In this document: one piece after another, positions 50,487 through 58,968 of the stretch
Layout of the letters: each line of letters starts with the position of its first letter
Numbering within the stretch: position 1 is the stretch's first letter
DNA from: Escherichia phage vB_EcoM_ULIM3
Sequence record: OQ850289
Direction: 5' to 3' (one strand)
DNA: 64,000 nt
The notes under the pieces: generated by a model
What the model saw: only the letters and a program-made list of their open reading frames with translations
Told to the model about the DNA's origin: nothing
Database searches by the model: none
Program-made: the position numbers and the translations under genes

Positions 50487-50557
50487 GAAACTCTGTAGAA
50501 TATTCACAATAGACCAAGCCTTTCTTATCTGGTAAATTTTTCAGGTAAGGAGGCTTT

Positions 50558-50753
50558 TTCATTTCAGAATTGTGCAGGTAGATTTCTATAGAGAAACCTG
50601 TAGAGAAAATATTGAACTCCAAAGAGAAAATTCATTTTCAAACTGTGCAGATAATCTCCAAAGAGCTTTTTCATTTTCAAAACGTGCAGACCCCGCTCAG
50701 GTCGGGCAAGAAAAATCATTTTAGATTTGTGCAGGTAGGTTTTTATAGAGAGC
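50558..50753. repeat. four direct iteron-like repeats
   Basis: Core TCATTT(T/C)(C/A)(A/G)A(A/T)(T/C/A)(T/C)GTGCAG(G/A)(T/C) at ~50558, 50631, 50670, 50714; copies 1 and 4 share ~38 bp. Confidence 0.6.
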
Positions 50754-50761
50754 CAGACCAA

Positions 50762-50792
50762 CCCCTCTCCCCCTCTTACTCCCCCTCTCCCC
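50762..50792 (-). other. G-quadruplex-forming motif (C-rich on + strand)
   Basis: + strand CCCC-TCT-CCCCC-TCTTACT-CCCCC-TCT-CCCC, i.e. four G4-5 tracts on - strand. Confidence 0.55.
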
Positions 50793-50914
50793 AAAAGTCA
50801 AGAGAAAAATTTGTAGCGGATTGAAAAATAATTCTTGATTTGTGTTCTGTTTTGTGGTAGTCGTGTGCGCCCGTTTCATTACAGTTTTGCCAAAAATATT
50901 TTTAAAATTTTTTC

Positions 50915-50974
50915 TTGACTCTTTGAACGTGGTTATCTAGTATTTGCATCAACGGGGAGGGAATGACCTTCCCC
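50915..50974 (+). promoter_or_regulatory. early promoter cassette 1 with 5' leader stem-loop
   Basis: TTGACT-17-TAGTAT, then GGGGAGGG-AATGA-CCTTCCCC hairpin and conserved RBS (CTGGAG-9-ATG). Confidence 0.6.
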
Positions 50975-51006
50975 ACTAAATAAAGTCCTAAACTGGAGGT
51001 TCAAAA

Positions 51007-51387
51007 ATGGCATATCGCGCACCTAAATTCATCAATAAAGACAACTTTCGCAACGCACTGGAGAAGTCACTTGATGAAAATTTTAAAGGTAACATTATCG
51101 TTGTTCACGCATTCAATTTTAAGTATGATGTAAACGGGAATAGAATCAACCATTACACGGCAACCATGTTAGATGGTACACTATCAAGTGAAAAAGCCGT
51201 ACTGAATGCACTAGCAGGACGCGGAAAAGTATTAGTAAGATGCGATAAGCGACGTTATCAGGGTGGCGCATATGGTTATGATGATGCTGTTTATCATCTT
51301 GAAAATATGGGCTATAAAGTAGAAAAAGCTGGGGTATCGCAAATCATCGGGAGCGATGGTTATGTAACAATCTTCAAAATTAACTGA
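51007..51387 (+). CDS. hypothetical early protein
   Basis: 126 aa ORF directly after promoter cassette. Confidence 0.55.
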   Translation: MAYRAPKFINKDNFRNALEKSLDENFKGNIIVVHAFNFKYDVNGNRINHYTATMLDGTLSSEKAVLNALAGRGKVLVRCDKRRYQGGAYGYDDAVYHLENMGYKVEKAGVSQIIGSDGYVTIFKIN

Positions 51388-51388
51388 T

Positions 51389-51477
51389 AAAGTACTTTAC
51401 AAGGGGCTTATAGTTCAATAGAGTAAGCCCCAGATAAAGAGCTTTACCACTCAATCCTAAATTGGAGAATCTGAAAA
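51389..51477 (+). promoter_or_regulatory. class B intergenic element, copy 1
   Basis: AGTACTTTACAAGGGGCTTA..TAAGCCCCAGATAAAGAGCTTTACCACT..GGAGA..ATG; hairpin with TTTACA-17-TAGAGT embedded. Confidence 0.5.
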
Positions 51478-51771
51478 ATGGCTATTATCAAAAACGTTGT
51501 AATTACTGCAAAAACTCGTGATGACGCTCGCGTTATGGCTAAAAAGTTATGCGGGAAAGTTGTTGACAATGGGAAAAAATCTGCTGTAAGATGGGGCGTA
51601 AAGGTTGATAAACAGTTGAAGTTAAAAAATTCACCGATAAACCTTTTTACATGTGTAAACACTATCGGGAAGACAAATGTATACACGAAAAAGGCATACA
51701 TTAGACGCGTAGCATTAACATCCCCCATTCGTACAATGAGAGGTTATGCAAAGCTGAAAATTAACAAATAA
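51478..51771 (+). CDS. hypothetical early protein
   Basis: 97 aa ORF after class B element. Confidence 0.5.
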   Translation: MAIIKNVVITAKTRDDARVMAKKLCGKVVDNGKKSAVRWGVKVDKQLKLKNSPINLFTCVNTIGKTNVYTKKAYIRRVALTSPIRTMRGYAKLKINK

Positions 51772-51856
51772 AGTACTTTACAGGGGGCTTAAAAGTTGAT
51801 ATCTTAAGCCCCAGATAAAGAGCTTTACCACTTAATCCTAAACTGGAGATTCAAAA
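51770..51856 (+). promoter_or_regulatory. class B intergenic element, copy 2
   Basis: Same conserved element with GGGGGCTTAA..TTAAGCCCC hairpin. Confidence 0.5.
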
Positions 51857-52369
51857 ATGAAAACTGTAGACGCTACCTTTGAAGTTGTAAAAGAAAAATT
51901 TTCCATCATCTACGAAGCGGTAAATTGCTACGAAGCAAGCCATAATCTTGATAATTGGGAGTTTACAGATGACCATCAAGGCGGTGTGACTGTTAAAAAT
52001 CCTAACTGTCAGCGTAATGATTTTAAATATGCAATCCCTTTGCATTACAGCCTTAAACAGCTTTCAAGTGACTATGCAAAACAAGGCCGGGAAAATCCAT
52101 CAAAAGAGGCTTACGCAAGCTTACAAAAAGAACTAGAAAGAGATTTAGAGGCTTCAGAGTACAACCTTGCCGCGAAAGTTGTGGATGCAAATGGTCAAAC
52201 AATTTTAGACAGTTTTTATATTGGCTACGCTTTTGATTGGTGCTATAGTGACGGCGATGATTTAGAGGATAGACTAAAAGAAGAGGTGAACAATTCAGAC
52301 GCAGAATCTGAAGTATTAGAACGTTTGGAATCACTAAAAGATTCAGTGATGAATATCTTTAAGAACTAA
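51857..52369 (+). CDS. hypothetical early protein
   Basis: 170 aa acidic ORF. Confidence 0.55.
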   Translation: MKTVDATFEVVKEKFSIIYEAVNCYEASHNLDNWEFTDDHQGGVTVKNPNCQRNDFKYAIPLHYSLKQLSSDYAKQGRENPSKEAYASLQKELERDLEASEYNLAAKVVDANGQTILDSFYIGYAFDWCYSDGDDLEDRLKEEVNNSDAESEVLERLESLKDSVMNIFKN

Positions 52370-52374
52370 ATAGA

Positions 52375-52461
52375 TTTCTTTACACGGGGTTATCAAGCTG
52401 GTAGGATAGCCCCAGATAAAGAGATTTATCAAATAAAGCCCTTAAACTAGGAGATTCTAAA
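52375..52461 (+). promoter_or_regulatory. class B intergenic element, copy 3 (divergent)
   Basis: GGGGTTATC..GATAGCCCC hairpin then AGATAAAGAG and RBS. Confidence 0.45.
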
Positions 52462-52758
52462 ATGAAATTATCAAATCAAGTGCGTGAAAATCTAAGCAAA
52501 TTACTCAACAAAATTGATTTCATTGAAACATCAAGGAATAATCATGATGTTATGGAATGGTTACACGGCAAAATAAAAGGCCGTCGTGTAGTGATTTGCT
52601 TATGGAACAGTTGCAGGGAGTATAAAAAACCTGTATTGCAAGTTAATATCTATGATGATACTTTTAAAAGTCCTGTAAAGTCTAAAAGCGATTTATTAGA
52701 ATCCTATGAGATAACTGTAAATGGCAAAGTATCACGTAAAGAGGAAACACCATGTTAA
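52462..52758 (+). CDS. hypothetical early protein
   Basis: 98 aa ORF. Confidence 0.5.
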   Translation: MKLSNQVRENLSKLLNKIDFIETSRNNHDVMEWLHGKIKGRRVVICLWNSCREYKKPVLQVNIYDDTFKSPVKSKSDLLESYEITVNGKVSRKEETPC

Positions 52759-53084
52759 TGACTGGTATCACTGCAATCATTGCCATTTTCGCGCTATATA
52801 AGGCATATAAAGCCTATAATCTAGCAAATAAGGCAATCACACAGCAGGTTAGTAATAGCCTTGTAGAAAGCTTTCTAGGGCGCCTCAGTGATGAGCAAAT
52901 AAAGCGGCTAGAGATGAGCTTCAGATATAAAGCGAAAACCTATCAGATAAGTGACATCTTCAAAGATAATTTTCAGTTAGTTGATGATTATAATTCTCTG
53001 ATAAATGCTTTAAATGTCAGTGACTTAAAAGACTACTACGCTGTAATTGTTCAAGAATTGAGCAAACGAAAACAAAACTGTTGA
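52752..53084 (+). CDS. hypothetical early protein with N-terminal TM
   Basis: 110 aa ORF; hydrophobic N-terminus; stop overlaps -35 of next cassette. Confidence 0.5.
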   Translation: MLMTGITAIIAIFALYKAYKAYNLANKAITQQVSNSLVESFLGRLSDEQIKRLEMSFRYKAKTYQISDIFKDNFQLVDDYNSLINALNVSDLKDYYAVIVQELSKRKQNC

Positions 53085-53140
53085 CACTGGTTTTTAGATA
53101 GATTAAATTACACATCAACGGGGAGGGAATGACCTTCCCC
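53081..53140 (+). promoter_or_regulatory. early promoter cassette 2
   Basis: TTGACA-17-TAAATT then GGGGAGGG..CCTTCCCC hairpin; ~95 bp near-identical to 53942-54037. Confidence 0.6.
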
Positions 53141-53172
53141 ACTAAATAAAGTCCTAAACTGGAGATTCCAAA

Positions 53173-53445
53173 ATGTATACTACTAACAACGGTCGCACCT
53201 TAAACGTAACCCTACGCCACTATGTGAACGGTGTAATGCACTTCGAGGATTTACAAGCTGAACAGCACATTTTGGATTGGCAAGTTGCAGGACTCCAAAA
53301 AACTGCTACAGGATACGGGAAAAAGATTCCAACCAGTTGGAAAGTATACTACGAAGGACGTTTGCGCAGAATTTATCAAGATGTGCAAAGCAATAGCGCA
53401 TCGAGTTACATTATAGTAAAAGGCAAAAAACTGCATTTAATGTAA
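53173..53445 (+). CDS. hypothetical early protein
   Basis: 90 aa ORF. Confidence 0.5.
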   Translation: MYTTNNGRTLNVTLRHYVNGVMHFEDLQAEQHILDWQVAGLQKTATGYGKKIPTSWKVYYEGRLRRIYQDVQSNSASSYIIVKGKKLHLM

Positions 53446-53516
53446 AGTACTTTACAAGGGGCTTATAGTTCGATAAAGTAAGCCCCAGATAAAGAGCTTT
53501 ACTACTCAATCCTAAA
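53445..53516 (+). promoter_or_regulatory. class B intergenic element, copy 4
   Basis: GGGGCTTATAGTTCGATAAAGTAAGCCCC hairpin and conserved flanks. Confidence 0.5.
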
Positions 53517-53936
53517 TTGGAGAACTTAAAAATGGCTATTAATAACCGTGAATTATCAATGTTAAAAGCACGTTTGACCGTTAATCGAATCAACATTATG
53601 ACATCATCAGCGCCTGATGAGACATTGCACAACATTATCGGAAAGATTCAAAGCGTTATTTTAGACGTTGAAAACGTAAAAAGTTCATTGGCTGACGTTG
53701 CAGCAGGTATCACGCTAGACGGTGCGCAATATGAAATGTCCGACATGTTAGGCAAATCAAAGGTAATGAATAAAGAGCTTGATTTAAAGATGTTCCGATT
53801 TGCTGTTAAAGTATGGCTATCCGTCGAGTATGACGCTAATTTTGCAATCGCTGATTTCTTTGCCACTTGGTTACAACGTAATTTGACAAATCACGATTTT
53901 CGTGATGTCTGTGATGCAATTTATGCAGAACTCTAA
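53517..53936 (+). CDS. hypothetical early protein
   Basis: 139 aa ORF. Confidence 0.55.
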   Translation: MENLKMAINNRELSMLKARLTVNRINIMTSSAPDETLHNIIGKIQSVILDVENVKSSLADVAAGITLDGAQYEMSDMLGKSKVMNKELDLKMFRFAVKVWLSVEYDANFAIADFFATWLQRNLTNHDFRDVCDAIYAEL

Positions 53937-53945
53937 AAAATTTTG

Positions 53946-54005
53946 TTGACACTGGTTTTTAGATAGATTAAATTACACATCAACGGGGAGGGAATGACCT
54001 TCCCC
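53946..54005 (+). promoter_or_regulatory. early promoter cassette 3
   Basis: TTGACA-17-TAAATT then hairpin; duplicate of cassette 2. Confidence 0.6.
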
Positions 54006-54037
54006 ACTAAATAAAGTCCTAAACTGGAGATTCAAAA

Positions 54038-54241
54038 ATGGCTATTATTAATGGTTTAACCATTGAAACTACACACATCAAAGATATCAAAGTTGGTGAT
54101 ATAGTCCTTTCCCACGGCGTAGAAAAAACTGTCACTGCAAAGGATATCAAAGAGGATTCTTTCATGGGTAGGACTCTCTTCGGTGATTCTTATTGCTTAG
54201 GCTATCTTGCAGTTTTAAAAGTTGTCAAAAATAACAAATAA
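54038..54241 (+). CDS. hypothetical early protein
   Basis: 67 aa ORF. Confidence 0.45.
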   Translation: MAIINGLTIETTHIKDIKVGDIVLSHGVEKTVTAKDIKEDSFMGRTLFGDSYCLGYLAVLKVVKNNK

Positions 54242-54327
54242 AGTACTTTACAAGGGGCTTAAAAGTTGATAACTTAAGCCTCAGATAAAGAGCTTTACCA
54301 CTAAATCCTAAACTGGAGATTCTAAAA
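54241..54327 (+). promoter_or_regulatory. class B intergenic element, copy 5
   Basis: Conserved element, hairpin with one mismatch (GCCTC). Confidence 0.45.
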
Positions 54328-54576
54328 ATGATGAACTACTTTAACATTCCCGATACCTGTAGATTATTGACACAAGAAGAAAATTTGGGTAAACCTTTCA
54401 TTTACCACATGCCAGATAACACGGCAAAAACTTATAGTTACAATGTTAACCGTTTCACCGCATACGCTGCAAAGAACGGCTATAGGTTGGTTACTCAAAA
54501 AGTAATGCTGGTTACAACTGCTGGCGAGATTCCTACAGTTGCAGTCAAACTAGTTTTCTCAAAGAAAGTTAAATAA
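54328..54576 (+). CDS. hypothetical early protein
   Basis: 82 aa ORF. Confidence 0.5.
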   Translation: MMNYFNIPDTCRLLTQEENLGKPFIYHMPDNTAKTYSYNVNRFTAYAAKNGYRLVTQKVMLVTTAGEIPTVAVKLVFSKKVK

Positions 54577-54661
54577 AGCACTTTACAAGGGGCTTATAGT
54601 CCGATAAAGTAAGCCCCAGATAAAGAGCTTTACCACTAAATCCTAAACTGGAGATTCAAAA
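54577..54661 (+). promoter_or_regulatory. class B intergenic element, copy 6
   Basis: GGGGCTTATAGTCCGATAAAGTAAGCCCC hairpin and conserved flanks. Confidence 0.5.
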
Positions 54662-55204
54662 ATGAAATGTTTTCACGGAACTACTCAAGAAAATTTCCTC
54701 AACCTGATTAATAACGGTGATAAACCATCGGGCGCATGGAATTGTTCGGATATGGACGGCAATTTTTACGTGTATCCAGAAAATAAAATCTATGGCGACG
54801 ATGATGAAGAGATAACATCGGAAGGTATTCAGCAAGCTCTAGGCAATGCCACTATTACGGCGGCCTTCCAGATGAAAACCCAAAATATTGTTATCTTAGA
54901 ACTCGATATTCCAGAGGATGAGCTAAATGATGATTATTCTTGTGATAATATGTCGAGTGTAGCAAGTTTTACAGAGTACTTTGATGTAAATTGGATTAAA
55001 AAGGTCTATACAACAGAGTTTAACGCTATGTATTCGCCTTTTTGTCTTCCTTCACTGGATAACCCAAATATGAACTATCTTGATGAGACATTAGAACTAC
55101 TTGCTAAAAGTGTTCAACAGTCGGACAGTATTCAGGTTTTTTGTGACATCATGGATACACTGACAGGAAACATTGCAGAAGAGGATTTAAAGAGCTTTTT
55201 CTAA
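54662..55204 (+). CDS. hypothetical early protein
   Basis: 180 aa acidic ORF, followed by terminator. Confidence 0.55.
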   Translation: MKCFHGTTQENFLNLINNGDKPSGAWNCSDMDGNFYVYPENKIYGDDDEEITSEGIQQALGNATITAAFQMKTQNIVILELDIPEDELNDDYSCDNMSSVASFTEYFDVNWIKKVYTTEFNAMYSPFCLPSLDNPNMNYLDETLELLAKSVQQSDSIQVFCDIMDTLTGNIAEEDLKSFF

Positions 55205-55235
55205 AAACCTATGCAATAACCTTATAAACACTGAT

Positions 55236-55257
55236 TAGCCCCTCACAGGGGCTTTTA
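55236..55257 (+). terminator. intrinsic terminator
   Basis: AGCCCCT-CACA-GGGGCT followed by TTT. Confidence 0.55.
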
Positions 55258-55270
55258 GAGGGCTTAAATC

Positions 55271-55504
55271 ATGCTTACAACCGTTTACCTTATCCTTTCT
55301 ATTTGTAATGGCCATTCATGTGATTTTAAAGGGCTTGAGGAGTTCACAGGAAGTAAAGAAAATGCTATTCAAGTTTGCCAGATAGCAAGACAAGACTATC
55401 CCGCTAGTGATGATATACAATGTTACTTTAAGACAGAAGATGAAGACGGTATCTATTTTGACAGCGTAGATGGTCAGTATGAAATTATCATTGAAAAAGA
55501 CTAG
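55271..55504 (+). CDS. hypothetical early protein
   Basis: 77 aa ORF. Confidence 0.45.
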   Translation: MLTTVYLILSICNGHSCDFKGLEEFTGSKENAIQVCQIARQDYPASDDIQCYFKTEDEDGIYFDSVDGQYEIIIEKD

Positions 55505-55561
55505 ACAAGCCTGATAAAAATCTGTAAATTGTCAATCAACGGGGAGGGAATGACCTTCCCC
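55502..55561 (+). promoter_or_regulatory. early promoter cassette 4
   Basis: TAGACA-17-TAAATT (TGn extended -10) then GGGGAGGG..CCTTCCCC hairpin. Confidence 0.55.
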
Positions 55562-55595
55562 ACTAAGTACAATCCTTAAACTAGGAGATTCAAAA

Positions 55596-55937
55596 ATGGC
55601 TTATGTAACCGTAATTACCGATAAAGAAAATTCATCTTGGTCAACTCAAGTAAGTGATAAGATGTCACCTATGCAGTGCCTAAAATACTTTGAGCAGTGG
55701 AATAAAGGCGAGGACACAAGCCCCTTTCAAGTGATGCAGATTATCCATGTAGACAACGAAGGGAATAAAACGGTTTTAAATAGTGAGTACTACGCAAGCC
55801 GTTTTGAAACGAGAAGTAAAACAATGAAGCTTTTACGTGAATCCGGTTACTCCCATATCGCCGCGCTAATCTGGGATGACCTGCTAAAAAGTCAGCGTAT
55901 CAGCTATGTAAAACCTGAAAAAATATTCATCAGTTAA
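55596..55937 (+). CDS. hypothetical early protein
   Basis: 113 aa ORF. Confidence 0.5.
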   Translation: MAYVTVITDKENSSWSTQVSDKMSPMQCLKYFEQWNKGEDTSPFQVMQIIHVDNEGNKTVLNSEYYASRFETRSKTMKLLRESGYSHIAALIWDDLLKSQRISYVKPEKIFIS

Positions 55938-56065
55938 TCAATAACTTACAAAAAACTTTTAAAAAAGTGTTGACAATACCCATTGACATTGGTAACTTTG
56001 TTCGAGGGGGTTATCTAAAAGGGATTCACTTAAAAGATTCTTTATAGATAAGCTCAAAAAATTAC

Positions 56066-56124
56066 TTGCAATCAACTATCAAAACAAGTAAATTACTAAT
56101 CAACGGGAAGGCAATAACCTCCCC
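56066..56124 (+). promoter_or_regulatory. early promoter cassette 5 (variant hairpin)
   Basis: TTGCAA-17-TAAATT then GGGAAGG-CAATAA-CCTCCCC hairpin. Confidence 0.55.
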
Positions 56125-56156
56125 ACTAAATAAAGTCCTAAACTGGAGATTCTAAA

Positions 56157-56687
56157 ATGAACAAATTTCAAGCTATCAACTTCATTCGTTCAAATGCTGT
56201 AATGTCTAAGCCTGTAAAAGATACATACGAATTCCGTTGTAATGGGGTACATTTCGCAACAATCACCAAATCAGAAAACGGGGCTTATTACGTTCATCGT
56301 CGTAATGTCTCAACCGTTGTAGTCTCTCACTTTATGCAAGCTGTAGCGGAATTATTACCGTTATTCTTAGAGATTTATCTAGATGAGTGTAAAAACGTTC
56401 ACAACCACGTTAAAAGCCTTTTAAACGGTTATAAAATGGCTTATGAACGCTCTATCAAGTCCTTAAACAAGTTTTACAATGCACCTGCAAATACTGTTTC
56501 AATGGCTTATGATGTAAACGGTGAGTTAGTTAGTCTCTTTAAAGTGGAAGAAATTAAGCTGTATAATTTACGTCCTAGTGGTTACTCTAAGACTCTTGGT
56601 GAAGGTTTATCATTTAATATCAAGAACTTAGAAAAAACTTTAAAAGACATTGAAAAAGATATTGACGAGATAATCAAAAGTCTGTAA
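56157..56687 (+). CDS. hypothetical early protein
   Basis: 176 aa ORF. Confidence 0.55.
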   Translation: MNKFQAINFIRSNAVMSKPVKDTYEFRCNGVHFATITKSENGAYYVHRRNVSTVVVSHFMQAVAELLPLFLEIYLDECKNVHNHVKSLLNGYKMAYERSIKSLNKFYNAPANTVSMAYDVNGELVSLFKVEEIKLYNLRPSGYSKTLGEGLSFNIKNLEKTLKDIEKDIDEIIKSL

Positions 56688-56721
56688 ATTGTCAATCAAC
56701 GGGGAGGGAATGACCTTCCCC
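56662..56721 (+). promoter_or_regulatory. early promoter cassette 6
   Basis: TTGACG-17-TAAATT then GGGGAGGG..CCTTCCCC hairpin. Confidence 0.6.
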
Positions 56722-56753
56722 ACTAAATAAAGTCCTAAACTGGAGTTATCAAG

Positions 56754-57017
56754 ATGGAAAACGTAGAATTAACCACACTTTTACAAATTGCAACTGACAA
56801 AGAAGATGTAGCACTGTTTCACCGTATCGAAAGCGATTTATTCAATGGTGAAATCATCAAAGAATCTTATGAAGTTGTCGGATTCAAAGATGGTAAAGCG
56901 TTTGGCTTTTTTGACCTCGACAAAGGCAACGCTGTCACAAAGTATGATGTTGTATCTTGTGAGATTCTTACAAAATACAACGAAAAAAGGCTTGCAACAT
57001 ACGCCAATATGCAGTAA
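56754..57017 (+). CDS. hypothetical early protein
   Basis: 87 aa ORF. Confidence 0.5.
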   Translation: MENVELTTLLQIATDKEDVALFHRIESDLFNGEIIKESYEVVGFKDGKAFGFFDLDKGNAVTKYDVVSCEILTKYNEKRLATYANMQ

Positions 57018-57049
57018 ATTACTAATCAACGGGAGGCGATAACCTCCCC
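56992..57049 (+). promoter_or_regulatory. early promoter cassette 7 (variant hairpin)
   Basis: TTGCAA-17-TAAATT then GGGAGG-CGATAA-CCTCCC hairpin. Confidence 0.55.
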
Positions 57050-57083
57050 ACTAAATAAAACCCTTAAACTAGGAGATTCAAAA

Positions 57084-57332
57084 ATGGCAACTATCCGCGC
57101 TACTGTCAATGCCTATGGCTGTTATACTCTGGACGTTAAATTCGATATTGGTGGAACTGATGAGTGTTTTTCATTAGTGAAGACAGTTATCAAACAAGTT
57201 ATTCCAGATTATAACCCTACTGATGACTTCTGGAAAGATGCTGTAAAAGAGGCATTAAACGACGAGCATCACTATCATTACTGGGGTGACTTGATTGTTT
57301 CCCTGTACTACAATAAACAAGGTTACAACTAA
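57084..57332 (+). CDS. hypothetical early protein
   Basis: 82 aa ORF followed by tandem hairpins. Confidence 0.5.
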   Translation: MATIRATVNAYGCYTLDVKFDIGGTDECFSLVKTVIKQVIPDYNPTDDFWKDAVKEALNDEHHYHYWGDLIVSLYYNKQGYN

Positions 57333-57342
57333 TCGACGCAAC

Positions 57343-57397
57343 GGGGCTAAATAGCCCCAGATACCTCAACAGCCCCTGTTTAAAGGGGCTTTTTTAC
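57343..57397 (+). terminator. tandem stem-loops ending in an intrinsic terminator
   Basis: GGGGCT-AAAT-AGCCCC then AGCCCCT-GTTTAA-AGGGGCT followed by TTTTTT. Confidence 0.7.
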
Positions 57398-57399
57398 GT

Positions 57400-58940
57400 C
57401 TATTGAATCCTTATACAATCCCTTTCCAGAATCTTATCAGACCTTAAAAGCAATAACTCTATAGTCTACTCTATAACCTCTTATCAAATCAACTTAAATA
57501 AAAGCCAATAACCCCAGAAAGGGGATGGCCCATTTAAACGCTCTATAAAGCTCTATAACAGCCTTATCAACCTAACTTAAGGGATTGCATTACCTCACCC
57601 TAAAAAGCCCTTTATAAAGCTTCTCAGAGCCTTAAAAGAATCTTATAAGGGTGTAAGCTTTATCATCTCATTAGTATTCTTGTGAATAACTAAACAACCC
57701 CTTGATAGTCACTAAAAAGTATGTTATAGGGGGCTTTAAAGTTACTTTGAAGTAGCTTAAAAGTTACGTAAAAGAGGCTATAAAGTTACGTAAATGCTAG
57801 CCCCCTTAACATTTTCTTAACAATTTCTTAACAATCCCTACATAGTTATGCTTTTAAGGCACTTGTTAGCAACTTGTTAGCCCCTTGTTAAATCTCTGTT
57901 AAGACCACGTAAAAGCCTTGTAAGAGTCTTTGACATAGCCTTAAAAGCTCCTGTAAAGCCCTATAAAGAGGTATCTGTACAGTTGGGGGATAGATACTAG
58001 GAAGAGGTTTAAAAGAGGCTATAAAGAGCTATAGAGAGCTTTTAAGAGGTATGTTTAAGGAATCACTAAGAAGCAAAGGGAACGATAAGAAAAGAGTAGT
58101 GACCATGTTAATAGCTTGTTAAAAAGATTAAACACTTGTTAAAAACTTGTTAATTATCTTAACAAAATAACTCTTAAAAATTAACTTGTTAGCTCTTGTT
58201 AGTCATCTGTTAAGAGACTATAAAGACCATGTATCGACTGTTAAGAACTTGTTACAGCCTTGTTAGTTCTGTTAAGAATCTGTTAAGACCTTTGAAGAGT
58301 TGTTAAGAAGATGTGAGAGCTGTTAAGAGATTGTTAAGGATATTTTAAAATTTTGCAAAGTACTTGTAAGGGAGCTGTTAAGGGCTACCAAGCAGATATA
58401 CATCTTCTACAGATATTTTTGAGTTCCTTCAAAGACCCTAAAAAATGACTTGATAGTCCTATTTTATAAAAATTTTAAGATTCTGAATAATTACCTATAC
58501 AGTCTTTTAAAAATACAGGCAGAAACAGGCTTATAAGATACCTTGTTAGTACCGTGTTAGACCTTGTGAGATAAGGTCTGTAAAGATATTCCTGTTAAGT
58601 TTGTTAAAACAGTCTATATAGAGGCTTAGTATTCCCTAGTGAACACCTATAGAGAGTGTCATAGGTAACATAGAGATTAAGAGGTGTATAGGAGCTTCTA
58701 AGAAGGTGTAGAGAGATGGTTAAGGTGATTGTATAGGTTGTTAAGAAGGCTTGTTAGAAGAGTGTTTAGAAGGGCTATACAGAGGGGCTATTAAGACCAC
58801 TAGATAGTTACTAAGATACTATATAGTACTATATAACTATATATAGAGAGTAAGATTAAGAAGGTTGTTAAGAAGGGTAGATATTTTATTCACATATGAT
58901 GGTGACCCAGAGGTTGGGACAACCGATAAAATTTTATAAA
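57400..58940. repeat. ORF-free region dense in short degenerate motifs
   Basis: No ORF >60 aa on either strand; >25 copies of (C/T)TGTTA(A/G)(G) and CTATAAAG-like motifs; purine-rich + strand; between convergent units. Confidence 0.7.
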
Positions 58941-58968
58941 AATTAAAAAGCCCCCGATTAAGGAGGCT
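58938..58968 (-). terminator. putative intrinsic terminator for the minus-strand cluster
   Basis: Minus-strand reading: GAGCCTCC-TTAATC-GGGGGCT followed by T-rich run. Confidence 0.45.

What the first reader, a model, noticed from the sequence alone, without database searches (positions are those of the whole stretch)
50915..57083. Seven copies of a promoter plus leader stem-loop plus RBS cassette driving small early-type genes
Seven near-identical cassettes (-35 TTGACA/TTGCAA, 17 nt, -10 TAAATT; then an 8 bp stem-loop GGGGAGGG-AATGA-CCTTCCCC about 10 nt after the -10; then ACTAAATAAAGTCCTAAACTGGAGATTCAAAAATG) each sit immediately before a small ORF. Two variant hairpins (cassettes 5 and 7) have changes on both arms that keep most of the stem paired, which points to selection on RNA structure. 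Copies 2 and 3 are ~95 bp near-identical. A conserved 5' leader hairpin at +1 suggests RNA-level control (stability, RNase processing or a binding protein) of a host-takeover gene set.
Basis: seen in the sequence. Interest (0 to 1): 0.6.

Follow-up and report, generated by a model that had tools for sequence, protein, structure and literature searches.

The report
Repeated promoter–hairpin gene cassettes, Felix-O1-like phage
In a 6.5-kb block of a Felix O1-like phage genome, almost every small gene of unknown function has its own standard cassette of host-type promoter, RNA hairpin and ribosome-binding site, and related phages have gained, lost and swapped genes by recombining between these cassettes, as already described for T4-like phages.

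Summary
Seven promoter–hairpin–RBS cassettes ("type A") lie at the stated coordinates and nowhere else in the window.

These share the same RBS module, but a sigma70-like promoter (TTTACA-17-TAnnnT) sits inside a two-part hairpin of about 21 bp. Together, 13 of the 15 ORFs have their own cassette.

The window is a Felixounavirus. Across about 40 related loci from four genera:
- Both promoter types show the classic conservation pattern: hexamers conserved, 17-nt spacer free.
- Both hairpins covary. Type A is 95.9% paired, type B 98.3%.
- G·U pairs far outnumber A·C mismatches, which points to sense-strand RNA.
- 85 of 96 synteny breakpoints fall in cassettes (24.6% expected), often with 20–100 nt of junction overlap.
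- One Felix O1 cassette is a clear A3/A4 chimera.

This matches the PeSL ("promoter-early stem-loop") cassettes of T4-like phages, here in an unrelated subfamily.

Promoter activity, transcription start sites and the hairpin's role are inferred, not shown. I favour a 5'-terminal stabiliser for type A and an RNase III site or 3' stabiliser for type B. "Host takeover" is unsupported: all 15 ORFs are of unknown function.

Verdict: real, and a new member of a known kind. Moderate interest.

The parts
50915..51006 (+). Type A cassette 1. -35 TTGACT 50915-20; -10 TAGTAT 50938-43; ATCAAC 50948-53; hairpin 50954-74; GGAG 50995-98. Precedes the 126-aa ORF at 51007.
51388..51477 (+). Type B cassette 1. 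It starts at the stop codon of the upstream ORF. Lower stem 5' strand 51388-99; -35 TTTACA 51396-401; upper stem-loop 51403-31, with -10 TAGAGT at 51419-24 in the loop; lower stem 3' strand 51435-46; GGAG 51464-67.
51769..51856 (+). Type B cassette 2. TTTACA 51777-82; TGA+TATCTT extended -10 at 51800-05; upper stem-loop 51784-812; GGAG 51845-48.
52371..52461 (+). Type B cassette 3, a variant. It has a 13-bp lower stem with compensatory changes. TTTACA 52379-84; TGG+TAGGAT 52402-07; upper stem-loop 52386-413; GGAG 52450-53.
53081..53172 (+). Type A cassette 2. TTGACA 53081-86 overlaps the stop codon of the upstream ORF. TAAATT 53104-09; hairpin 53120-40; GGAG 53161-64.
53443..53531 (+). Type B cassette 4. 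TTTACA 53451-56; TAAAGT 53474-79; upper stem-loop 53458-86; GGAG 53519-22.
53946..54037 (+). Type A cassette 3, 95/96 identical to cassette 2. Hairpin 53985-54005.
54239..54327 (+). Type B cassette 5. TTTACA 54247-52; TGA+TAACTT 54270-75; upper stem-loop 54254-82, which contains one G.U pair.
54574..54661 (+). Type B cassette 6. TTTACA 54582-87; TAAAGT 54605-10; upper stem-loop 54589-617.
55502..55595 (+). Type A cassette 4. TAGACA 55502-07; TAAATT 55525-30; hairpin 55541-61. Carries the RBS allele CCTTAAACTAGGAG.
56066..56156 (+). Type A cassette 5. TTGCAA 56066-71; TAAATT 56089-94; variant hairpin 56105-24 with 6 bp and an A.C mismatch.
56662..56753 (+). Type A cassette 6. TTGACG 56662-67 lies inside the end of the upstream ORF. 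TAAATT 56685-90; hairpin 56701-21.
56992..57083 (+). Type A cassette 7. TTGCAA 56992-97; TAAATT 57015-20; variant 6-bp hairpin 57031-48.
51007..57332 (+). Fifteen small ORFs (67-180 aa) served by the cassettes, all of unknown function. Two have no cassette of their own. The ORF at 52752 overlaps its upstream neighbour. The ORF at 55271 follows a terminator-like hairpin at 55237-55254.
57371..57396 (+). Canonical intrinsic terminator (AGCCCCTGTTTAAAGGGGCT + TTTTTT) that closes the block. It is preceded by a remnant type-B-like hairpin, GGGGCTAAATAGCCCC-AGATA, at 57343-57363.

Best explanation
The 50.9-57.4 kb block is the variable early/accessory gene region of a Felix O1-like myovirus. Thirteen of its fifteen small ORFs of unknown function each carry a portable regulatory cassette of about 90 bp. 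This is the same kind of element as the PeSLs (promoter-early stem-loops) of T4-like phages.

Each cassette has three parts:
1. A promoter read by host sigma70 RNA polymerase.
2. A G+C-rich stem-loop that forms in the sense RNA.
3. A standard A-rich leader with a GGAG Shine-Dalgarno sequence 8-10 nt before the ATG.

There are two architectures.

- Type A (x7). The hairpin starts 10 nt after the -10 hexamer, about +3/+4 of the predicted transcript. Every transcript started there would begin with a 5'-terminal stem-loop. I infer that this protects the mRNA from 5'-end-dependent decay (RppH / RNase E). It would also lie near the 3' end of any read-through message from upstream.

- Type B (x6). 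The promoter (TTTACA, 17 nt, TAnnnT, often with TG) lies inside a bipartite hairpin: a lower stem of 11-12 bp, a 3x3 internal loop, an upper stem of 9 bp and a loop of 9-13 nt. The hairpin would therefore be present only in read-through RNA from the upstream gene. I infer that it acts there as a processing site (T7-type RNase III) and/or a 3'-end stabiliser or attenuator.

On an evolutionary scale, the repeated cassettes provide the homology for recombination that inserts, deletes and swaps gene-plus-cassette modules.

Shown: the repeats, the promoter-like conservation pattern, the structural covariation and its strand asymmetry, breakpoints inside cassettes, a chimeric cassette, and genus-specific homogenisation of copies.

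Inferred: promoter activity, transcription start sites, and every biochemical role of the hairpins.
For: Identity and context
- The window is a Felixounavirus: 94% identical to phage LMP33, with 258 matching phage records.
- The 13 cassettes occur only in this block, all on the + strand.

Promoters
- Type A, 84 distinct copies: T/T/G of the -35 are 100/92/99% conserved. The -10 T, A and final T are 100%. The 17-nt spacer carries mostly under 0.8 bits per position (0.06-1.16). An A-rich tract lies upstream.
- Type B, 100 distinct copies: TTTACA is invariant. In the otherwise free loop, T23, A24 and T28 are each 98% conserved and G at -14 is 87%. TG is present in 51%.
- 10 of the 13 cassettes are picked up by the simple sigma70 scan, all with 17-nt spacing.

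Type A hairpin
- 36 or more alleles, with stems of 4-8 bp.
- On the covariance-model alignment, 95.9% of cells pair and 5 of 8 pairs have double changes. 0 of 500 shuffles reach this, and slid controls give 69-91%.
- Cognate arms fold to -10.5 kcal/mol against -8.7 for swapped arms; 0 of 2000 permutations do as well.

Type B hairpin
- 98.3% of 2001 cells pair, against 92.0% in shuffles and at most 57.8% when slid.
- 102 cells show double changes, against 21 expected. An independent anchor-based count agrees.
- Erwinia phages carry GGTG/CACC in place of GGGG/CCCC.

Strand
- G.U greatly outnumbers A.C: 56 to 7 in type A.
- In type B, UG is seen 47 times at one upper-stem pair and 92 times at one lower-stem pair.
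- The model scores the sense strand at 52-97 bits and the antisense strand at 30-42 bits.

Recombination
- 85 of 96 synteny breakpoints against 21 relatives lie in cassettes, where 24.6% is expected (p about 1e-39).
- Many junctions overlap by 20-100 nt, including A-to-B junctions through the shared RBS module.
- The Felix O1 cassette before its ORF21 has the A3 promoter side and the A4 RBS and gene side. The window therefore carries 1.49 kb more between two cassette copies.
- Paralogous copies share genus-specific substitutions.

Genes and known precedent
- The ORFs have no known function.
- The PeSL definition covers stem-loops placed between -35 and -10 as well as downstream of -10, and it notes G-T pairs.
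Against: - No transcription start sites, transcript ends or RNA half-lives are available for any Felix O1-like phage in the searched library. Promoter function and the "+3 hairpin" are therefore predictions.
- The Felix O1 genome paper did not list these sites among its predicted promoters.
- The positional homologue of cassette A5 in Moogle, SUSP1 and several other relatives has a promoter and leader but no recognisable hairpin, so the hairpin is dispensable at least at some sites.
- Window cassette 5 folds better on the antisense strand.
- The covariance-model alignments are fitted to the structure. The copies are related and exchange sequence, so counted changes are not independent events.
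- Whole-gene indels would put breakpoints in intergenic DNA in any case. It is the junction overlaps and the chimera that point to recombination within cassettes.
- In PeSLs the stem-loop was reported to act as a strong terminator, a role I consider unlikely here.
Confidence: 0.72

Rival explanations
1. The stem-loops are transcription terminators or attenuators that insulate each gene from upstream transcription. This is the role proposed and partly tested for PeSL stem-loops in RB49/phi1. The promoters then restart transcription.
For: - A PeSL stem-loop reduced lacZ expression as strongly as rrnB T1.
- GenBank records ASO1A/B and KhF1-3 annotate these hairpins as rho-independent terminators predicted by WebGeSTer.
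- The stems are G+C-rich.
Against: - None of the 13 hairpins is followed by a T-run. Type A is followed by ACTAAATAAAG and type B by AGATAAAG.
- The terminator scan finds none of them. It does find the canonical terminator that closes the block.
- The type A hairpin lies downstream of its own promoter, so it would terminate its own transcript.
- The conserved lower stem and internal loop of type B are not needed for an intrinsic terminator.
Confidence: 0.2
2. The type A hairpin, with the invariant ATCAAC, is the binding site of a phage-encoded or host RNA-binding regulator. This could be a nut/boxB-like antitermination site or a translational repressor that controls the whole gene set together.
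For: - TCAAC is invariant in the 84 distinct type-A copies from three genera that were selected on this motif; a few first-position cassettes carry ATCAGAC instead. The hairpin always follows it directly.
- Some alleles have GNRA-type loops, GAAA or GAGA.
Against: - There are 29 different loop sequences, stems of 4-8 bp and several unrelated stem sequences.
- The positional homologue of cassette A5 in several relatives has no recognisable hairpin.
- Only pairing is conserved, not sequence, which is not what a specific RNA-protein contact predicts.
- ATCAAC is also explained as the start-site region of the promoter.
Confidence: 0.07
3. The repeats act at the DNA level, as cruciforms, operators or recombination hot spots, or are selfish repeats with no role in expression. 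For example, the palindrome TAAAGTACTTTA in type B could be an operator for a dimeric repressor.
For: - TAAAGTACTTTA is a perfect 12-bp palindrome overlapping the -35 element, and a near copy lies about 40 bp downstream.
- The cassettes clearly take part in DNA recombination.
Against: - G.U pairs are tolerated and common only on the + strand. They would be A.C mismatches on the other strand and mismatches in a cruciform.
- In the B3 variant each half-element loses its own palindromic symmetry, while complementarity between the two halves is kept by double changes: GC to UA in 12 sequences.
- The sigma70-type conservation pattern and the fixed Shine-Dalgarno-to-ATG spacing are not expected for selfish repeats.
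Confidence: 0.06

Closest known systems
PeSL (promoter-early stem-loop) cassettes of T4-like phages RB49/phi1, T4/PST and KVP40/nt-1 (Arbiol et al. 2010, PMC2839356; Comeau et al. 2014, PMC4122927)
   Same: [quoted passage not shown]
- A sigma70-type early promoter with an A/T-rich upstream tract.
- A G/C-tract stem-loop containing G-T pairs.
- Stem-loop placement either between -35 and -10 or just downstream of -10.
- A Shine-Dalgarno sequence at the 3' end.
- Many copies clustered in a variable region of small ORFs of unknown function.
- Indels and replacements between close relatives whose junctions lie inside the repeat.
   Different: - A different virus lineage: Ounavirinae with genomes of about 88 kb, not T4-like.
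- No detectable sequence similarity outside Ounavirinae.
- Only two sharply defined architectures.
- The leader/RBS module is itself a conserved recombination substrate shared by both types.
- The type B hairpin is a bipartite structure of about 21 bp with covariation in both stems.
- No T-run follows the hairpins, so the terminator role shown for one PeSL is doubtful here.
- Promoter and terminator activity and mini-circles have not been tested.
RNase III processing sites of the T7/T3 early region, R0.3-R1.3 (established knowledge; Dunn and Studier)
   Same: - Type B elements lie between consecutive early genes.
- They fold into two stems of about 9-12 bp separated by a small internal loop, which is the size and shape of T7-type single-cleavage sites.
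- Cleavage would leave the upstream mRNA with a protective 3' hairpin.
   Different: - No cleavage data exist.
- T7 sites do not contain promoters.
- Type A stems (4-8 bp) are too short for RNase III.
5'-terminal stem-loop mRNA stabilisers, such as the ompA 5' UTR (established knowledge; Emory, Bouvet and Belasco 1992; RppH/RNase E 5'-end dependence)
   Same: The type A hairpin sits at a fixed distance of 10 nt from the -10 hexamer. This predicts only about 2-4 unpaired nucleotides at the 5' end, which is the geometry needed for protection.
   Different: - The transcription start site is predicted, not mapped.
- No half-life data exist.
- The ompA element is a single-gene feature, not a repeated module.
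Direct repeats already recorded in Felix O1 and wV8
   Same: These are the same sequences. The Felix O1 paper lists a 57-bp repeat (type B) and a 39-bp repeat (type A promoter). The wV8 GenBank record marks them as DR_1 to DR_9. ASO1A annotates them as "promoter" plus "terminator".
   Different: They were recorded only as repeats or automated predictions. None of the sources I found treats them as a cassette system, as conserved RNA structure, or as recombination modules.

Membership tests
PeSL-type regulatory cassette | Sequence close to the sigma70 promoter consensus, with an A/T-rich upstream tract | tested here: met
   Conservation profiles of 84 type A and 100 type B copies. The scan hits 10 of the 13 cassettes. 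Promoter activity itself was not tested.
PeSL-type regulatory cassette | A stable G/C-rich stem-loop adjacent to or overlapping the promoter. Five positional subclasses are known, including between -35 and -10 and downstream of -10. | tested here: met
   Type A lies downstream of -10, and type B encloses the -35 to -10 region. Covariation supports both.
PeSL-type regulatory cassette | The unit runs from the stop codon of the upstream gene to the Shine-Dalgarno sequence and start codon of the downstream gene | tested here: met
   Type B starts at the stop codon. In A2 the TTGACA overlaps the stop codon. GGAG lies 8-10 nt before every ATG.
PeSL-type regulatory cassette | Many copies concentrated in a variable region rich in small ORFs of unknown function | tested here: met
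   13 copies in 6.5 kb and none in the other 57 kb of the window or the other 26 kb of LMP33. All 15 ORFs lack a known function. Relatives cover 6-100% of the block.
PeSL-type regulatory cassette | Indels and replacements between related phages have junctions inside the repeated motif | tested here: met
   85 of 96 breakpoints lie in cassettes, junctions overlap by 20-100 nt, and there is a chimeric A3/A4 cassette.
PeSL-type regulatory cassette | Demonstrated promoter and terminator activity, and excised mini-circles | not testable with these tools
   Needs reporter assays and inverse PCR on infected cells.
PeSL-type regulatory cassette | Sequence homology to the RB49/phi1 elements, or occurrence in T4-like phages | tested here: not met
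   Sensitive blastn with both cassette types hits 248 and 288 records. All of the listed rows are Ounavirinae-type genomes or fragments of them. The resemblance is one of kind, not of descent.
Intrinsic (rho-independent) terminator | A G+C-rich hairpin directly followed by a T/U run | tested here: not met
   No cassette hairpin is reported by the terminator scan. Their tails are ACTAAATAAAG or AGATAAAG.
T7-type RNase III processing site | About 20 bp of double-stranded RNA, usually two stems around an internal loop, located between cistrons | tested here: inconclusive
   Type B has 11-12 + 9 bp around a 3x3 loop, with covariation in both stems. Type A does not qualify. Cleavage cannot be tested here.
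Lambda nut/boxB-like antitermination site | A conserved hairpin loop sequence recognised by an N-like protein | tested here: not met
   There are 29 different loops and variable stems.
N4-type hairpin promoter for a virion RNA polymerase | A 5-7 bp stem with a 3-nt loop in the template strand, plus a phage-encoded RNA polymerase | tested here: not met
   Loops are 4-9 nt and the structure is favoured on the sense strand. Felix O1 is reported to encode no RNA polymerase.
Rfam families | A match to any curated RNA family | tested here: not met
   Only one chance-level hit, E = 0.35.

The most novel reading that the evidence does not exclude
The type B element may carry two signals in the same DNA: a promoter and a processing site. 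Its -35 element lies in the lower stem and internal loop, and its -10 element lies in the terminal loop of an RNA hairpin shaped like a T7-type RNase III site. The predicted transcription start is 7-8 nt after TAnnnT, at the CCCC/AGA junction. This coincides within about 2 nt with the 3' side of the internal loop, where such sites are cut. A downstream mRNA would then have the same 5' end and the same standard leader whether it arose by initiation at the cassette or by processing of read-through RNA. Gene modules would stay expression-equivalent wherever recombination placed them.
Probability: 0.15. Interest if true: 0.65.

Novelty: new member of a known kind. Interest (0 to 1): 0.4.

Why it matters
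- It extends the PeSL principle beyond T4-like phages to an unrelated myovirus subfamily. In that principle, portable promoter / stem-loop / RBS units both express and shuffle accessory genes. This suggests a convergent and general solution for phage accessory-gene turnover.
- Felix O1-like phages are widely used for Salmonella and E. coli typing and biocontrol. The cassettes mark the natural insertion and deletion points of the genome. They also offer ready-made expression units for engineering.
- Both hairpins covary and favour the sense strand, so the data give two well-supported RNA structures.
- They also give a clear, cheap experiment: start-site and 3'-end mapping in wild-type and rnc hosts. 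This would settle what stem-loops in such cassettes do, a question the PeSL work left open between terminator, stabiliser and processing site.

Tried and rejected
- **MAFFT alignment of 47 hairpin variants.** The stems did not come into register, so I did not use it for pair counts. I used covariance-model alignments and an alignment-free arm-swap test instead.
- **Gapped pattern scan of viral contigs.** Most hits were chance matches. Only the loci from contigs of about 80-90 kb were used.
- **Rfam on the block.** Nothing found.
- **Pfam and PHROGs on all 15 ORFs.** No function found, so "host takeover" cannot be supported.
- **N4-like hairpin promoters.** This was my first association. I rejected it because of loop size, strand, the clear sigma70 hexamers and the absence of a phage RNA polymerase.
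- **Intrinsic terminators.** Rejected because no T-run follows the hairpins.
- **Palindromic operator reading of TAAAGTACTTTA.** Rejected because the B3 variant keeps complementarity between the two halves while losing the symmetry within each half.
- **Literature searches.** I looked for start-site maps of Felix O1-like phages and for any link between PeSLs and these phages, and found none. The wV8 paper text does not discuss its annotated repeats.

Full report
**1. What the window is**

Megablast of 50800-57400 against phage genomes gives 258 matching records, all Felix O1-like myoviruses. The best is E. coli phage LMP33, at 94% identity over 100% of the query. Coverage in other relatives falls stepwise from 100% to under 10%, in several pieces. 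The block is therefore mosaic within the group.

It lies downstream of rIIA/rIIB, spanin genes and a Macro-domain gene. It ends at a canonical terminator at 57371-57396.

**2. Check of the observation**

The seven cassettes are there, on the + strand, each ending at the ATG of a small ORF. The ATGs are at 51007, 53173, 54038, 55596, 56157, 56754 and 57084.

- All seven have a -35-like hexamer: TTGACT, TTGACA x2, TAGACA, TTGCAA x2, TTGACG.
- All have a 17-nt spacer and a -10-like hexamer. This is TAAATT in six copies and TAGTAT in the first.
- The invariant ATCAAC follows, and a hairpin starts exactly 10 nt after the -10 hexamer.
- A conserved leader follows, with GGAG 8 nt before the ATG.
- Five hairpins are the identical GGGGAGGG-AATGA-CCTTCCCC, which contains one G.U pair.
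- Cassette 7 has a clean 6-bp stem. Cassette 5 has 6 bp around an A.C mismatch.
- Copies 2 and 3 differ at one base in 96.
- The core patterns occur 5-7 times against 0.00 expected by chance.

**3.

Six further intergenic cassettes ("type B") precede the ATGs at 51478, 51857, 52462, 53532, 54328 and 54662. They end in the same leader/RBS module, so 13 of the 15 ORFs have a cassette.

Type B begins at the upstream stop codon. It reads TAAAGTACTTTACA-N-GGGGCTTA...TAAGCCCC-AGA-TAAAGAGCTTTAC.

It folds into two stems: a lower stem of 11-12 bp, a 3x3 internal loop, an upper stem of 9 bp and a loop of 9-13 nt. The folding energy is -22 to -27 kcal/mol, with z-scores of -2.7 to -3.6.

It also contains TTTACA, 17 nt, TAnnnT. 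The sigma70 scan reports this in five of the six copies.

All 13 RBS modules, and both core motifs, occur only in this block. None occurs in the other 57 kb of the window or in the 26 kb of LMP33 that the window does not cover.

**4. Comparative data set**

I collected this region from Felix O1, wV8, LMP33 and ASO1A (Felixounavirus). I added Moogle, 3HA14, Maleficent and ESh22 (Mooglevirus), SUSP1 and EcSzw-2 (Suspvirus), and an Erwinia phage (Kolesnikvirus). Fragments of about 25 Felix-like metagenomic contigs completed the set.

Before the wV8 and Erwinia loci were added, scripted extraction gave 122 distinct type A and 110 distinct type B upstream regions.

**5. Promoter signature**

Type A, anchored on ATCAAC, 84 distinct regions:
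- The -35 T/T/G are 100/92/99% conserved.
- The -10 reads T(100) A(100) n n n T(100).
- The 17 spacer positions carry mostly under 0.8 bits each (0.06-1.16).
- An A-tract lies upstream.

Type B, anchored on TTTACA, 100 distinct regions:
- Loop positions are nearly free, at 0.1-0.4 bits.
- The exceptions are T23, A24 and T28 (98% each) and G21 (87%). This gives TAnnnT at 17 nt, with a G at -14. TG is present in 51%.

This is the conservation pattern of sigma70 promoters, and for type B of the extended -10 class. It is sequence evidence only. No start-site mapping for these phages was found.

In Felix O1, RT-PCR showed ORFs 16, 20, 21 and 22 of this block peaking at 5 min, and ORFs 17, 19 and 23 peaking at 25 min.

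**6. Hairpin A**

At least 36 distinct alleles follow ATCAAC. They have stems of 4-8 bp and 29 different loops. Some stems are unrelated in sequence, such as GGGGCAAGATAAAGCCCC and GGGAAGCAATCCC. The positional homologue of cassette A5 in Moogle, SUSP1 and several other relatives has no recognisable hairpin.

On a covariance-model alignment of 84 distinct rows:
- 95.9% of cells pair.
- 5 of 8 pairs show changes on both sides.
- 0 of 500 shuffles reach the observed values.
- Sliding the partners gives 69-91% pairing.

That alignment is fitted to the model and contains a few type B rows. I therefore added an alignment-free test. Cognate 5' and 3' arms fold to -10.5 kcal/mol on average, against -8.7 for swapped arms, and 0 of 2000 permutations do as well.

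G.U pairs number 56 against 7 A.C mismatches. The structure is therefore favoured on the sense strand.

**7. Hairpin B**

A covariance model built from the six window copies finds 113 sense-strand copies, of which 101 are distinct.

- 98.3% of 2001 cells pair. Shuffles give 92.0 +/- 0.3%, and slid controls at most 57.8%.
- 102 cells carry double changes, against 21 +/- 4 expected.
- Both helices contain compensatory pairs: UA to AU, AU to UA, GC to UA.

An independent count anchored on TTTACA and CAGATAAAG agrees. Erwinia phages carry GGTG...CACC in place of GGGG...CCCC.

U.G is seen 47 times at one upper-stem pair and 92 times at one lower-stem pair. The reverse strand of the same loci scores 30-42 bits, against 52-97 for the sense strand.

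The B3 variant loses the internal symmetry of the TAAAGTACTTTA palindrome. It keeps, and extends to 13 bp, the pairing between the two halves. This argues for a long hairpin rather than two operators.

**8. Recombination**

I ran BLAST of the block against 21 relatives and examined 96 internal segment ends. 85 lie within cassette intervals +/-12 nt. These intervals cover 24.6% of the region (binomial p about 1e-39). For 48 distinct positions the count is 40.

Whole-gene indels would favour intergenic DNA anyway. The telling points are these:
- Adjacent segments overlap by 20-100 nt at the junction, so a single cassette copy stands where the window has two copies with genes between them. Examples are A3/A4, A6/A7, B5/B6, B1/B2 and B2/B3.
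- A-to-B junctions occur through the shared RBS module of 21-39 nt.
- In ASO1A, a 149-nt insertion holding an ORF annotated "No homologues" is flanked by a 33-nt repeat of the RBS module.
- The Felix O1 cassette before ORF21 matches A3 upstream of ATCAAC, including the end of the preceding gene. It matches A4 downstream of the hairpin, including the RBS allele and the start of the gene. The crossover therefore lay in the shared ATCAAC-hairpin segment.
- Paralogous copies within a genus share diagnostic substitutions. Type B copies in Mooglevirus and most of those in Suspvirus have T...T, where Felixounavirus copies mostly have A/G...C. The leader is AACAA in the former and ACTAAATAAAG in the latter. 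This indicates homogenisation among copies.

**9. Comparison with what is known**

The PeSLs of T4-like phages are defined as follows:
- sigma70-like early promoters with an A/T-rich upstream tract;
- a G/C-tract stem-loop, with G-T pairs noted;
- five positional subclasses, including between -35 and -10 and just downstream of -10;
- bounded by the upstream stop codon and the downstream Shine-Dalgarno sequence and ATG;
- clustered in hyperplastic regions rich in ORFs of unknown function;
- mediating modular shuffling.

Every sequence-level criterion is met here (see the membership table). The ORFs have no Pfam domain and belong to PHROGs of unknown function.

The elements are not homologous to the T4-type ones. 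Sensitive blastn finds them only in Ounavirinae-type genomes, and type B extends to Erwinia phages.

In the Felix O1 literature, the same sequences appear only in three forms:
- as "direct repeats" in the Felix O1 paper;
- as DR_1-9 in the wV8 record;
- as automated "promoter" plus "terminator" calls in ASO1A.

No paper in the library links PeSLs with these phages.

**10. Mechanism, and how sure I am**

I am fairly confident (about 0.7) that these are per-gene expression cassettes read by host RNA polymerase, and that they also serve as recombination modules.

The role of the hairpins is less certain.

- *Type A.* The fixed 10-nt distance from the -10 hexamer places the stem about 3 nt from the predicted 5' end. 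That is the geometry of 5'-terminal stabilisers, according to established knowledge of the ompA 5' UTR and of RppH/RNase E. Pairing rather than sequence is conserved, which fits a generic structural role and not a specific binding protein.
- *Type B.* The hairpin exists only in read-through RNA. Its size and internal loop resemble T7 early RNase III sites. Cleavage there would release an upstream mRNA with a 3' hairpin. The downstream mRNA would have a 5' end nearly coinciding with the predicted start site of the embedded promoter.
- *Terminator role.* A classical terminator role is unlikely, because no T-run follows any cassette hairpin.

All of these are inferences.

**11. Verdict**

It is unsupported on "host takeover" and unlikely on a binding protein.

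This is a new, non-homologous member of a known kind of element. Interest is moderate.

Noticed in passing
window 57400-58950: A stretch of about 1.55 kb with no ORF longer than 31 aa lies between the end of the + strand block and the converging - strand genes. It is packed with the heptamer YTGTTAR on the + strand: 24 copies, or 15.5 per kb, against 0.4 per kb elsewhere in the window. CTATAAAG occurs 5 times. There is no Rfam hit. A gap of similar size lies at this position in Moogle, and LMP33 has only two tiny annotated ORFs there. It could be a replication origin or a protein-binding array.
   Followed up: partly
window 50520-50800: After the terminator at 50520-50553 come four or five direct repeats of about 35 nt (...TTTTTCATTTTCAAACTGTGCAGRT...). 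A C-rich tract, CCCCTCTCCCCCTCTTACTCCCCCTCTCCCC, follows just upstream of the first cassette. The arrangement is conserved in Moogle.
   Followed up: no
window 55968-56060: An extra sigma70-like promoter (TTGACA-17-TAACTT) is followed by an imperfect hairpin of about 18 bp (dG -16.2 kcal/mol, z -2.6) with no ORF. It is conserved at 77-80% in Mooglevirus and Suspvirus, better than the flanking genes at 70-72%. It may be a small RNA. ASO1A annotates it as promoter plus terminator.
   Followed up: partly
window, RBS modules (for example 54018-54029 versus 55574-55587): The RBS module comes in two linked forms, CCTAAACTGGAG and CCTTAAACTAGGAG, in which a T and an A are inserted together. In the cassettes I read through I noticed no mixed forms, but I did not count them. 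CCU...AGG could pair and partly mask the Shine-Dalgarno sequence, but the helix is only 2-3 bp.
   Followed up: no
L133 (Erwinia phage vEam_PM_21) 2500-9000: The same one-cassette-per-gene layout exists in a Kolesnikvirus, but with a different standard leader: ATCGAAACAAACAACCCTTATAAAGGAAT, with an AGGAA-type Shine-Dalgarno sequence. Most hairpins lie upstream of the ATCGAAAC motif. The module sequence is lineage-specific, while the architecture is conserved.
   Followed up: partly
window 55237-55254 and 57343-57363: A terminator-like hairpin, AGCCCCTCACAGGGGCTTTT, precedes one of the two ORFs without a cassette (55271). A remnant type-B-like upper stem, GGGGCTAAATAGCCCC-AGATA, with no promoter or lower stem, sits just before the final terminator.
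   Followed up: no
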